Assembly: GCA_951812955.1 (NCBI GenBank)
Contig: OX638340.1
Span: 1,184,001 to 1,248,000 of the forward strand
Reading direction: 5' to 3'
Origin: an uncultured Gemmatimonadota bacterium
Lineage (GTDB): Bacteria > JAAXHH01
DNA: 64,000 bases
In this document: positions 29,507-30,763 of the stretch, piece after piece
How the letters are laid out: each line of letters opens with the position of its first letter
Position numbering within the stretch: position 1 is the first letter of the stretch
Translations under genes and position numbers: made by a program
Notes under the pieces: generated by a model
Seen by the model: the letters and a program-made list of their open reading frames with translations, nothing else
Told to the model about the DNA's origin: nothing
Databases searched by the model: none

Positions 29507-30763
29507 TCAACCAAACTCAGGCCGGTCTTTCCTGTCGTCGTCTGTTTCCTTTGGTGTCGAAGGTGGTTCTTCTTCGCCGTTAACGGAGTCAGAGCCTGAG
29601 GATTCCTTTGCTTCTGATGTCGGTTTCTCGTCGGATTCGATTTTGGATCCGTCCCGATTCTCTTTATCATCCTTTTGATCAGGCTCCCTATCCTGGCTGG
29701 ACTCACCTCCGCTCTTTTCACGCCTGTTCGAATCAGTGCCCCCTTCGCCATCGTCGCCTACGTCGTTCTCGCCCGATTTCGCGTCATCCGCATCCGGCTC
29801 CTCCGAGTACCCCATCTCCGCGTCATAGTCGTAGATGAATTCGTCATCGTCAGGCCAGTAGTCGCGGCCGGTCCGTTGCCCGGTACCCGGAGACGACCCA
29901 CGCGGAAGCGTCGGTGTGTCGGGCTCGTCCGTAGTCAGCGCGGGTTGTTCCTCGTCCCCTCCATCGTCGCCTCCACCACCGTCATCGTCGCCATCATCCT
30001 CTTCTTCAGCCTCTTCCGCTTTCTTTCTACTCCTGCCGATCAGCGCGGCAATACCCATGCTGATGAAATACAGCACTACAAGGGGAATCGCTACCAGGGT
30101 CTGCGTGTAGGGATCTCCTGTGGGCGTGATTACGGCGGCCGCTATAAATATGACCACCAGGGCGATACGCCACACCCGCTTCAGCACACTGGCGTTCAGG
30201 ATGCGAAGCCAGGTCAGAAACGCAACCACCGCCGGCATCTGGAACACGATGCCCATGATCAGGACCATCTTGTTTACAAGTCCGACATAGAACCCGATAT
30301 CCCACTGGGGCTTTATGTCGGGGACATGCAGCTGAACAAAGAAGCGGACCATGACCGGGATCAGTACATAGAAAGCGAAGGCTGCGCCGGTGAGGAAAAG
30401 CACGCAGCAGAAGAAGATAACGATGGGGACATACTTCTTCTCTCTATCCAGCAGACCGGGTGATACGAATATCCACAAGTTATAAAGCACGTAGGGCAGT
30501 GCGAAGGCGAAGCCCAGCAGCAAAGAGATGTTCACCTTGGCCGTAAACATGCCGGCCGGCCGGATGGCCTGGATCTCGATCTCGGTCTTCAGGTTTTCCT
30601 GGAAGGTCGGAGAGAGGAGGAAATTGATGATGTAGTCGGCGAAGGTGAAGCAGAGGACCATGCCGACCAGAATGGCGAGTACGGATTTCAATATGGCCCG
30701 GCGAAGCTCTTCGAGATGTTCCAGAAAGGACATCTCGCCGCTGCGGCCTTTCGCTGGGGACAT
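29507..30763 (-). CDS. tatC: Twin-arginine translocase subunit TatC with a ~180-aa acidic low-complexity C-terminal extension
   Basis: N-terminal SFLEHLEELRRAILKSV and six TM helices typical of TatC (core ~240 aa). The tail is rich in D/E/G/S (…EEEDDGDDDGGGGDDGGDEE…DDDEFIYDYDAEMGYSEEPDADD…). Confidence 0.85.
   Translation of the reverse strand: MSPAKGRSGEMSFLEHLEELRRAILKSVLAILVGMVLCFTFADYIINFLLSPTFQENLKTEIEIQAIRPAGMFTAKVNISLLLGFAFALPYVLYNLWIFVSPGLLDREKKYVPIVIFFCCVLFLTGAAFAFYVLIPVMVRFFVQLHVPDIKPQWDIGFYVGLVNKMVLIMGIVFQMPAVVAFLTWLRILNASVLKRVWRIALVVIFIAAAVITPTGDPYTQTLVAIPLVVLYFISMGIAALIGRSRKKAEEAEEEDDGDDDGGGGDDGGDEEQPALTTDEPDTPTLPRGSSPGTGQRTGRDYWPDDDEFIYDYDAEMGYSEEPDADDAKSGENDVGDDGEGGTDSNRREKSGGESSQDREPDQKDDKENRDGSKIESDEKPTSEAKESSGSDSVNGEEEPPSTPKETDDDRKDRPEFG

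What the first reader, a model, noticed from the sequence alone, without database searches (positions are those of the whole stretch)
29507..30043. TatC carries a ~180-residue acidic, low-complexity C-terminal tail
The canonical six-TM TatC core (~240 aa) is followed in the same frame by a long D/E/G/S-rich disordered extension (runs such as EEEDDGDDDGGGGDDGGDEE, DDDEFIYDYDAEMGY). Bacterial TatC proteins normally end shortly after TM6. No tatB is adjacent, and tatA is 25 kb away.
Basis: seen in the sequence. Interest (0 to 1): 0.5.

Follow-up and report, generated by a model that had tools for sequence, protein, structure and literature searches.

The report
TatC with conserved acidic disordered tail
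The protein-export receptor TatC of this uncultured sponge- and coral-associated bacterium carries a real, roughly 175-residue acidic, unstructured cytoplasmic tail that its whole lineage shares and that hides a strongly conserved 50-residue motif of unknown function.

Summary
ORF 29507..30763 (-) encodes a 418-aa TatC: a canonical six-helix core followed in frame by about 175 residues with 34% D+E and net charge -39.

It is not a frameshift or assembly artefact. About 110 homologue clusters carry the same in-frame tail, including complete chromosomes of sponge and coral MAGs labelled Gemmatimonadetes, Latescibacterota or Zixibacteria. On a tree built from the core alone they form one clade, so the tail arose once. 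It is therefore lineage-wide, not peculiar to this genome.

The tail is not merely low-complexity. It has four parts:
- a basic patch next to the membrane;
- an acidic Gly/Asp/Glu linker;
- a ~52-aa motif (PDTPTLPRG...YWPDDDEFIYDYDAEMGYSEEP) under purifying selection (dN/dS 0.10, core 0.06);
- a hypervariable acidic end that evolves by in-frame indels and tandem repeats but always stays acidic.

AlphaFold predicts no fold for the tail or the motif. The motif occurs in no other protein among 1.84 billion representatives.

Tail-bearing tatC genes stand alone in conserved synteny. The one tail-less relative examined, from the sister group, lies in a tatA-tatC operon.

Function is unknown. My best inference is a cytoplasmic recruitment or electrostatic module on the Tat receptor. 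This is a new variant of a known protein, of moderate interest.

The parts
29507..30763 (-). tatC ORF, 418 aa plus stop codon (29507-29509)
   Evidence: ORF list. Pfam PF00902 at 207.9 bits, TIGR00945 at 179 bits. The closest homologues, at 97-98% identity, have the same length.
30029..30763 (-). TatC core, aa 1-245: six transmembrane helices and the signal-peptide-binding face
   Evidence: AF2 pLDDT is 80-94 with the helix pattern of TatC. Foldseek matches 4b4a, 4hts and 9dzz at probability 1.00, TM-score up to 0.85 and rmsd 2.8 A. E19 and E108 (E. coli E15 and E103 by motif: H-L-x-E-L-R and P-x-L-x-x-x-E) are invariant in 59 sequences. dN/dS is 0.06.
29948..30028 (-). Basic residues next to the membrane (RKK, the end of the GRSRKK patch) followed by an acidic Gly/Asp/Glu linker, aa 246-272
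   Evidence: Translation. The TM6 helix runs on to residue 256, and the rest has pLDDT below 50. Length varies between homologues through in-frame indels. dN/dS is 0.11. Two short 12-nt tandem repeats lie here.
29789..29947 (-). Conserved linear motif, aa 273-325: QPALTTDEPDTPTLPRGSS..TGRDYWPDDDEFIYDYDAEMGYSEEPD
   Evidence: Alignments show T and R of 'PT-x-x-R' invariant, and P, E and I nearly invariant, across 19 diverse sequences. The core heptad is present in 105 of 107 tails. dN/dS is 0.10. A profile of the motif hits only TatC proteins among 1.84 billion representatives. AF2 gives no fold.
29510..29788 (-). Hypervariable acidic C-terminal region, aa 326-418
   Evidence: It cannot be aligned between close relatives (dN about 0.74, dS saturated, ratio about 0.5). 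It is nevertheless always present after the motif: 43-146 aa (median 94), net charge -8 to -45, D+E 20-46%. It changes by in-frame tandem duplication, for example 66 nt x 3.3 copies in L008. pLDDT is 37-49.
5014..5244 (+). tatA, 76 aa: the only TatA/B-family gene in the window, unlinked from tatC
   Evidence: Pfam PF02416 at E 2.2e-17. phmmer with E. coli TatA and TatB against all ORFs of the window finds only this one. Translation.
30939..34259 (+). Conserved divergent neighbours of tail-bearing tatC: sugar-1-phosphate nucleotidyltransferase (30939-32003), SelB (32085-34088) and tRNA-Sec (34162-34259)
   Evidence: Pfam and NCBIfam; Rfam and ARAGORN. The same SelB-NTase|tatC arrangement is seen around distant tail-bearing homologues P0100, P0105 and P0108.

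Best explanation
This is a functional TatC whose cytoplasmic C-terminus was extended once, in the ancestor of an uncultured lineage, into an intrinsically disordered acidic region. MAGs of that lineage are labelled Gemmatimonadetes, Latescibacterota or Zixibacteria, and many come from sponges and corals.

Shown here: the tail is translated, lineage-wide, of single origin, lies after TM6, and is predicted disordered. Its cytoplasmic location is inferred, not shown: TatC is known to have its C-terminus in the cytoplasm, a basic patch follows TM6, and the tail has no further hydrophobic segment. It is built of an acidic linker, a ~52-aa conserved acidic-aromatic linear motif under purifying selection, and a fast-evolving acidic end whose charge and presence are conserved but whose sequence is not.

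Inferred: Tat receptor complexes contain three TatC copies whose signal-peptide site faces the cytoplasm. Three such tails (about -117 charge in total) would therefore surround that site. I propose two roles. The conserved motif is a docking site that folds on binding a partner with a basic and hydrophobic surface; the basic amphipathic helix of TatA is the leading candidate. The acidic flanks act as flexible spacers and an electrostatic 'antenna' for basic partners such as twin-arginine signal peptides or the TatA helix. On this reading the tail is a built-in recruitment and assembly module, possibly compensating for tatC being expressed apart from tatA, or supplying what the disordered cytoplasmic part of TatB supplies elsewhere.
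For: Real and translated:
- One ORF.
- The same frame is open in 16 of the 17 related species' genomes found, those where the whole gene is present, several of them complete ~3.9-Mb chromosomes.
- Indels are always in frame.
- Two homologues with shifted frames (P0092, P0097) show what an artefact looks like: a basic tail of net charge +22 to +26.

Functional TatC:
- Family and fold matches.
- Invariant equivalents of E. coli E15 and E103.
- tatA is present.

Single origin: a score gap separates tail-bearers (313 bits or more) from tail-less proteins (221 bits or less), and tail-bearers are monophyletic on a core-only NJ tree.

Selection: motif dN/dS 0.10 against core 0.06. The motif is retained down to about 43% overall identity. 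The post-motif region is always at least 43 aa and always net negative.

Disordered linear motif rather than a domain: pLDDT is below 50 from residue 261 on. The motif alone gives pTM 0.18. The tail has no Pfam, NCBIfam or PDB sequence hit.

Specific to TatC: the motif profile finds 4 representatives in 1.84 billion proteins, three of them full-length TatC and the fourth a 170-aa C-terminal fragment with the same TM6 end and tail.

Gene context: tail-bearing tatC is solitary in conserved synteny in the window and in L001-L017, L022-L024 and L027. The one tail-less relative examined, from the sister group, overlaps a tatA gene.

Precedent in miniature: the E. coli TatC C-terminus is '[20 protein letters not shown]', basic then acidic.

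Geometry: a trimeric TatC cup open to the cytoplasm, with the signal peptide contacting TatC and the TatB amphipathic helix (PMC13323110).
Against: No partner has been identified, and nothing here tests binding.

AF2 gives no hint that the motif docks on the TatC core, although the alignment is shallow.

The link between the tail and a solitary tatC rests on a single tail-less comparison locus (L026).

Whether a tatB exists elsewhere in these genomes could not be checked.

The acidic composition of the variable part could partly reflect slippage-driven expansion of GA-rich repeats rather than selection for charge.

From my own recollection, not verified here: the short C-terminal tail of E. 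coli TatC is dispensable for transport. If so, the ancestral mini-tail has no essential role.
Confidence: 0.4

Rival explanations
1. The tail is a tolerated, essentially neutral extension. A disordered acidic repeat region grew by replication slippage at a C-terminus that accepts appendages, and it persists by drift, with no role in Tat transport.
For: The C-terminal ~90 aa cannot be aligned even between close relatives, with a dN/dS estimate near 0.5. It changes by tandem duplication. Length varies more than twofold. E. coli TatC is routinely used with C-terminal His, FLAG, Strep or T25 fusions, so its C-terminus accepts additions (PMC5102672; PMC13323110).
Against: The ~52-aa motif inside the tail has dN/dS 0.10 and invariant residues across sequences with only 40-50% overall identity. 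No member of the clade has lost the tail; the minimum is 43 aa after the motif, always net negative. This holds despite divergence deep enough to blur phylum labels. Drift does not explain this.
Confidence: 0.15
2. The tail is a regulatory or post-translational handle rather than a recruitment device. The invariant Thr and Arg in 'P-D-T-P-T-L-P-R' would be a phosphorylation or protease-recognition site, or the tail would act as an autoinhibitory lid folding back over the signal-peptide site until released.
For: T and R of the PT-x-x-R element are the only fully invariant residues in the diverse alignment. The motif is flanked by long flexible linkers that could reach back to the cytoplasmic face. 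Acidic tails that mimic or compete for basic-ligand sites are a common regulatory device (general knowledge).
Against: No kinase, FHA-domain or protease gene is linked to tatC in any of the loci examined. The TatC signal-peptide site is itself acidic (E19, E108), so an acidic lid would be repelled rather than bound. AF2 places nothing on the core.
Confidence: 0.15
3. The tail is an artefact: a sequencing or assembly frameshift that fuses tatC to downstream sequence, or read-through of a missed stop codon.
For: The base composition changes along the tail, with GC 0.63 falling to 0.46. A variable low-GC insert lies immediately downstream. Two database homologues do have frameshifted tails.
Against: The same frame and architecture occur in more than 100 independently assembled homologues, including complete chromosomes. 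The motif is under purifying selection in this frame. The C-terminal end 'EEPPST.KE.DDD.KDRPE' is shared with P0003 and P0014, which were not checked for the insert, and more loosely with P0038. Shifted frames give a basic tail, unlike this one.
Confidence: 0.01
4. The tail is a remnant of a fused TatB, or of another downstream gene, so the protein is a natural TatC-TatB-like fusion.
For: No tatB is seen near tatC. The cytoplasmic half of E. coli TatB is also a disordered region rich in P, A, E, S and T.
Against: The tail has no TatA_B_E (PF02416) match, no hydrophobic helix (about 10% hydrophobic residues) and no amphipathic helix. The motif profile finds no free-standing protein anywhere. 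Any resemblance to TatB is compositional and functional at most, not homology.
Confidence: 0.03

Closest known systems
Canonical bacterial TatC (E. coli TatC; Aquifex aeolicus TatC, PDB 4B4A and 4HTS)
   Same: Same family and fold. It has six transmembrane helices and the conserved Glu pair of the twin-arginine binding site. The C-terminus starts with a basic patch followed by acidic residues; in E. coli this is '[20 protein letters not shown]'.
   Different: The canonical tail is about 20 residues with no conserved motif. Here it is 120-214 residues across the clade (179 in the window by the same alignment-based count), with a conserved ~52-aa acidic-aromatic motif. Canonical tatC usually sits in a tatA(B)C operon, whereas here it is solitary.
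Atypical TatCs with large inserts (Nitratifractor salsuginis, Myxococcus xanthus; PDB 9E02, 9E03, 9E07; PMC13323110)
   Same: They are lineage-specific additions to an otherwise standard TatC core that still forms Tat receptor complexes. The N. salsuginis protein also ends in a short acidic run, 'EEKEDDEEEEED'.
   Different: Those inserts lie in periplasmic loops, and at least the M. xanthus one folds into a domain. The addition here is C-terminal, cytoplasmic and predicted disordered.
Disordered cytoplasmic C-terminal region of TatB
   Same: It is a long, flexible, net-acidic cytoplasmic extension of a Tat receptor subunit, positioned under the substrate-binding site (E. coli TatB sequence; residues after the amphipathic helix are unresolved in cryo-EM).
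   Different: There is no sequence homology and no TatA_B_E domain in the tail. It is attached to TatC instead of TatB, and it contains a conserved motif that TatB lacks.
Acidic disordered domains of other protein-targeting receptors (FtsY A-domain; Toc159 A-domain; the Tom22 'acid chain')
   Same: These are acidic, variable-length, disordered receptor regions on the side from which basic targeting signals arrive. They work like an electrostatic capture or selectivity device. This comparison is from general knowledge and was not tested here.
   Different: They are unrelated proteins and pathways, so the comparison is analogy only. No experiment links the TatC tail to signal-peptide capture.

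Membership tests
TatC (Pfam PF00902 / TIGR00945) | Sequence match to the family models above the curated cut-offs | tested here: met
   PF00902 scores 207.9 bits against a cut-off of 25.1, covering aa 15-227 and the full model 1-208. TIGR00945 scores 179 bits against 132.7.
TatC (Pfam PF00902 / TIGR00945) | Six-helix 'glove' fold as in the solved TatC structures | tested here: met
   The AF2 core has pLDDT 80-94. Foldseek against PDB finds 4b4a and 4hts (TM-score to target 0.85, rmsd 2.8 A) and 9dzz, 9e01, 9e02 and 9e07, all at probability 1.00.
TatC (Pfam PF00902 / TIGR00945) | Conserved acidic residues of the twin-arginine recognition site (E. coli E15 and E103) | tested here: met
   E19 (in H-L-E-E-L-R) and E108 (in P-G-L-L-D-R-E) are invariant in the 59-sequence alignment. 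They correspond by motif to E. coli H-L-I-E15-L-R and P-A-L-Y-K-H-E103.
TatC (Pfam PF00902 / TIGR00945) | A TatA-family partner encoded in the same genome | tested here: met
   tatA at window 5014-5244 (+), PF02416 at E 2.2e-17. It is unlinked, about 24 kb away.
TatABC-type system (with a separate TatB) | A second TatA/B-family gene with TatB characteristics | not testable with these tools
   The 64-kb window holds only one TatA/B-family gene, and there is none within 8 kb of tatC in the related loci. Whole genomes could not be searched.
TatB / TatA_B_E (PF02416) as the origin of the tail | An N-terminal transmembrane helix plus an amphipathic helix matching PF02416 | tested here: not met
   There is no PF02416 match in the 418-aa protein. 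The tail has about 10% hydrophobic residues and no predicted helix beyond residue 256.
Autonomous folded domain (any Pfam, NCBIfam or PDB family) in the tail | A profile or structure match, or a confident predicted fold | tested here: not met
   No Pfam or NCBIfam hit beyond residue ~257. phmmer of aa 222-418 against PDB finds nothing at E up to 10. AF2 gives pLDDT below 50 in context and pTM 0.18 for the motif alone.
Conserved short linear motif within a disordered region | Local conservation and purifying selection inside a region that is otherwise unalignable and predicted disordered | tested here: met
   Motif dN/dS is 0.10 against about 0.5 for the adjoining tail. Invariant T and R, and near-invariant P, E and I. 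Present in 105 of 107 tails. Disordered. Binding to a partner was not tested.

The most novel reading that the evidence does not exclude
The tail is a previously unrecognised functional module of a Tat translocase. It would be a receptor-borne disordered 'arm' whose conserved acidic-aromatic motif captures the basic amphipathic helix of TatA, or the basic n-region of twin-arginine signal peptides, and so controls substrate capture or translocon assembly. In effect a TatB-like or 'acid-chain' function would be built into TatC in a lineage where tatC is expressed on its own.
Probability: 0.25. Interest if true: 0.6.

Novelty: new variant of a known kind. Interest (0 to 1): 0.4.

Why it matters
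TatC is the substrate receptor of the only general pathway that exports folded proteins. How substrate binding leads to TatA recruitment is still being worked out structurally.

The natural variants studied so far add folded periplasmic inserts. I found no description of a long cytoplasmic extension on TatC in the literature searched.

A single-origin, lineage-wide disordered tail with a conserved motif lies on the face where signal peptides and the TatA/TatB amphipathic helices meet. That makes it a ready-made natural experiment. If the motif binds TatA or signal peptides, it would show that assembly or capture can be handled by a tethered linear motif.

If the tail turns out to be dispensable, the finding still has two uses. 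It is a clean sequence marker for this uncultured lineage. It also warns annotators that the long ORF is genuine.

Tried and rejected
1. Frameshift or assembly artefact: rejected.

2. A known domain in the tail: none found in Pfam or NCBIfam, and a PDB sequence search of the tail also found nothing.

3. A portable module shared with other proteins: a 56-position profile of the motif, searched against 1.84 billion representative proteins, returned only 4 hits: three full-length TatC proteins and one 170-aa C-terminal TatC-tail fragment.

4. A hidden fold: AF2 on the full protein with 59 homologues, and on the motif alone with 19, gave no structure.

5. A proteome-wide acidic bias: no genuine ORF elsewhere in the window has a comparably D/E-rich stretch (the remaining 50-aa windows at or above 30% D+E are in an ORF at 40835-41950, an unexamined 150-aa ORF at 35344-35796 and two ORFs antisense to tatC), although this is a sample of only 64 kb.

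6. The low-GC 3' end of the tail belonging to the downstream variable insert: unlikely. The same C-terminal peptide pattern occurs in P0003 and P0014 and, more loosely, in P0038, though their genomic context was not checked. The insert itself starts after the stop codon.

7. Literature: searches on TatC with 'C-terminal extension', 'C-terminal tail', 'intrinsically disordered' and 'acidic', plus the TatC diversity paper (PMC3827258) and the 2026 structure paper (PMC13323110), gave no description of such a tail.

8. A twin-arginine mimic in the motif: none. It has single Arg residues only and no S/T-R-R-x-F-L-K pattern.

9. Tat substrates in the window: only one weak candidate (2731-4128), which is uninformative.

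Full report
**1. What is there**

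The finding's coordinates, 29507-30043 on the minus strand, translate to 178 residues plus a stop codon. The translation begins 'LIGRSRKKAEEAEEEDDGDDDGGGGDDGGDEE' and contains 'DDDEFIYDYDAEMGY'. These residues are the 3' end of one uninterrupted ORF, 29507..30763 (-), 418 aa.

Residues 15-227 match Pfam TatC (PF00902, 207.9 bits). The protein passes the TIGR00945 tatC equivalog cut-off, 179 bits against 132.7.

The tail from residue 240 has 19% D, 15% E, 13% G and 9.5% S, with net charge -39. The core has 5% D+E and net charge +5.

The only TatA/B-family gene in the window is at 5014-5244 (+), and nothing TatB-like is adjacent.

**2. Not an artefact, and not unique to this genome**

A search of 5.8 billion proteins returned about 105 homologues of 359-453 aa covering 90-100% of the query. 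Two of them, at 97-98% identity, come from independent assemblies. Tail-less TatCs of about 250-275 aa appear only at 46% identity or less.

Every long homologue carries an acidic tail in the same register. Two exceptions (P0092, P0097) have shifted frames, which gives basic tails (+22, +26). That shows what a frameshift would look like here.

A scan of one genome per species found 17 close loci. They are sponge and coral MAGs labelled 'Gemmatimonadetes bacterium' or 'Candidatus Latescibacterota bacterium', and several are complete ~3.9-Mb chromosomes. In 16 of them the whole gene is present and open through the tail, at 389-460 aa; the seventeenth locus starts within the gene.

A second search, seeded from the most distant labelled member (P0105, 'Zixibacteria'), recovered the same closed set. 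It showed a sharp gap: 313 bits or more for tail-bearers, 221 bits or less for tail-less proteins.

A neighbour-joining tree built from the core alone puts all tail-bearers in one clade. Its sister is a tail-less group of 268-274 aa. So the tail was gained once and never lost. It also makes the feature more credible biologically.

**3. Anatomy of the tail**

Aligning 107 tails and 17 coding sequences shows four parts:

| Part | Residues | Features |
|---|---|---|
| a | 243-248 | Basic patch 'GRSRKK' ending the TM6 helix; the AF2 helix runs to residue 256 |
| b | to ~272 | Acidic Gly/Asp/Glu linker of variable length |
| c | 273-325 | Conserved island, QPALTTxEPDTPTLPRG...TGRxYWPDDDEFIYDYDxEMGYSEEP |
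| d | 326-418 | Variable acidic, Ser- and Gly-rich end |

The conserved island is still recognisable in the most distant members, as 'PDTPTISRG...YWPEEDDEFIYDYE' and 'TYPRGLYNFTGPESGMxYWP..EYIFEYD'. Across 19 diverse sequences, T and R of 'PT-x-x-R' are invariant, and a Pro plus the Glu and Ile of 'E-[FY]-I' are nearly so. The heptad [DE][EDQ][FYL][IVLF][YFE][DE][YNF] is present in 105 of 107 tails.

Nei-Gojobori estimates over 17 sequences:

| Region | dN/dS |
|---|---|
| Core | 0.06 |
| Linker | 0.11 |
| Motif | 0.10 |
| C-terminal part | about 0.5 |

The C-terminal part is effectively unalignable and its dS is saturated, so that last figure is rough. It evolves by in-frame indels and tandem duplications, for example 66 nt x 3.3 copies at 95% identity in L008. 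Yet it is always present at 43-146 aa (median 94), always net negative (-8 to -45), and 20-46% D+E.

**4. Structure and homology of the tail**

AF2 with 59 homologues gives a confident TatC core (pLDDT 80-94). Almost all residues from 261 on are below 50 and have no secondary structure.

The core matches the solved TatC structures 4b4a and 4hts, with TM-score 0.85 and rmsd 2.8 A. It also matches the 2025 cryo-EM complexes.

The motif alone, with its alignment, does not fold: pTM 0.18. The tail has no Pfam or NCBIfam match and no sequence relative in the PDB.

A profile of the motif, searched against 1.84 billion representative proteins, found four hits: three full-length TatC proteins of this clade and one 170-aa C-terminal fragment with the same TM6 end and tail. 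It is therefore neither a shared domain nor a captured gene.

**5. Context**

In the window, tatC is flanked upstream by a divergent sugar-1-phosphate nucleotidyltransferase, SelB and tRNA-Sec. Downstream lie a 450-aa ORF and a convergent TonB-dependent receptor.

The NTase|tatC|receptor arrangement holds in the close relatives. The SelB-NTase(-GHMP kinase)|tatC arrangement holds around the distant tail-bearers P0100, P0105 and P0108.

No tatA lies within 6-8 kb of any tail-bearing tatC. In contrast, the one tail-less relative examined from the sister group (P0115) overlaps an upstream tatA. This association is suggestive, but it rests on a single comparison.

**6. Function**

The core retains the invariant Glu pair (E19, E108). 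By motif these correspond to E. coli E15 and E103 of the twin-arginine binding site. A tatA is present too, so this is a working Tat receptor.

TatC has its C-terminus in the cytoplasm (established topology). The basic patch and the absence of any further hydrophobic segment agree with this.

Recent structures show three TatC copies forming a cup open to the cytoplasm. The signal peptide contacts TatC and the TatB amphipathic helix (PMC13323110). Three tails, about -117 charge in total, would surround that entrance.

E. coli TatC already has a miniature version, '[20 protein letters not shown]'. The N. salsuginis protein also ends in an acidic run. The lineage here has therefore expanded an ancestral trait about tenfold and added a motif.

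My best inference has two elements. The acidic-aromatic motif is a docking site for a basic and hydrophobic surface; the basic amphipathic helix of TatA, 'SLARGLGKGVREFKRVV', is the obvious candidate. The acidic flanks give reach and electrostatic attraction for basic partners, including signal peptides. I put about 0.4 on this general 'recruitment or capture module' reading.

Rival explanations, with my estimates:
- a tolerated neutral appendage, 0.15; the selection on the motif contradicts it;
- a regulatory, modification or autoinhibitory handle, 0.15;
- a TatB-fusion remnant, 0.03; the tail has no TatA_B_E signature;
- an artefact, 0.01.

**7. Comparison with what is known**

I found no description of a long cytoplasmic C-terminal extension of TatC. 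The TatC diversity survey does not discuss termini. The known 'atypical' TatCs carry folded periplasmic inserts.

Functionally, the nearest analogies are the disordered acidic tail of TatB and the acidic disordered receptor domains of other targeting systems: the FtsY A-domain, the Toc159 A-domain and Tom22. That second group is from general knowledge and is analogy only.

**8. Verdict**

The tail is a genuine, single-origin, lineage-wide variant of a well-known protein, with an unexpected conserved linear motif and an untested function. It is a new variant of a known kind, with interest about 0.4.

The most novel reading not excluded is a receptor-borne arm that handles TatA or signal-peptide capture. 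I give it about 0.25, and it would merit about 0.6 if true.

Noticed in passing
window 28057-29409 (-): A 450-aa ORF of lower GC (~0.47 against ~0.6) lies between the tatC stop and the convergent TonB-dependent receptor. It has no Pfam, NCBIfam or PADLOC match. It occupies this site in only 3 of the 17 related genomes (L005, L014, and split in two in L002). It has 428 homologues, none with a Pfam domain among the 120 listed. Copies at 52-55% identity are labelled Defluviicoccus, Gammaproteobacteria and Nitrospinae. It looks like a gene family of unknown function shared horizontally among bacteria of different phyla, apparently from similar samples.
   Followed up: partly
protein P0102 (442 aa; homologue): This tail-bearing TatC has an internal duplication of the TM5-TM6 segment: 'ILTP..LLK..WR.AL..I..AVITPTGD..T.T....PLVVLY' occurs twice, ahead of the acidic tail. 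It is either an eight-helix TatC variant or an assembly duplication.
   Followed up: no
proteins P0092 and P0097: Two database homologues have basic tails (net +26 and +22) that diverge from the family part-way through the linker or motif. These are probably frameshift errors in those assemblies. They are useful as a negative control for the reading frame.
   Followed up: partly
L008 6424-6640; L015 tail: In relatives, the variable part of the tail contains recent in-frame tandem repeats: 66 nt x 3.3 copies at 95% identity in L008, and 'ETGETGETGES' runs in L015. The acidic region therefore grows by slippage.
   Followed up: partly
window 25208-28018 (+), and L002-L016 downstream of tatC: The TonB-dependent receptor convergent with tatC has a tandem paralogue of about 64-66% identity immediately beyond it in most related genomes.
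   Followed up: no
window 32085-34259 (+): SelB (selenocysteine elongation factor) is followed directly by tRNA-Sec (34162-34259). This pair, together with the nucleotidyltransferase, stays next to tatC even in distant relatives. A COX3-like gene follows at 35116-35724.
   Followed up: partly
window 2731-4128 (+): A 465-aa membrane protein has an N-terminus, 'GRRTATSPVAVRVLLYLAFTGIAAAVSLTGAYG', that loosely resembles a twin-arginine signal peptide. It is the only such candidate in the window.
   Followed up: no
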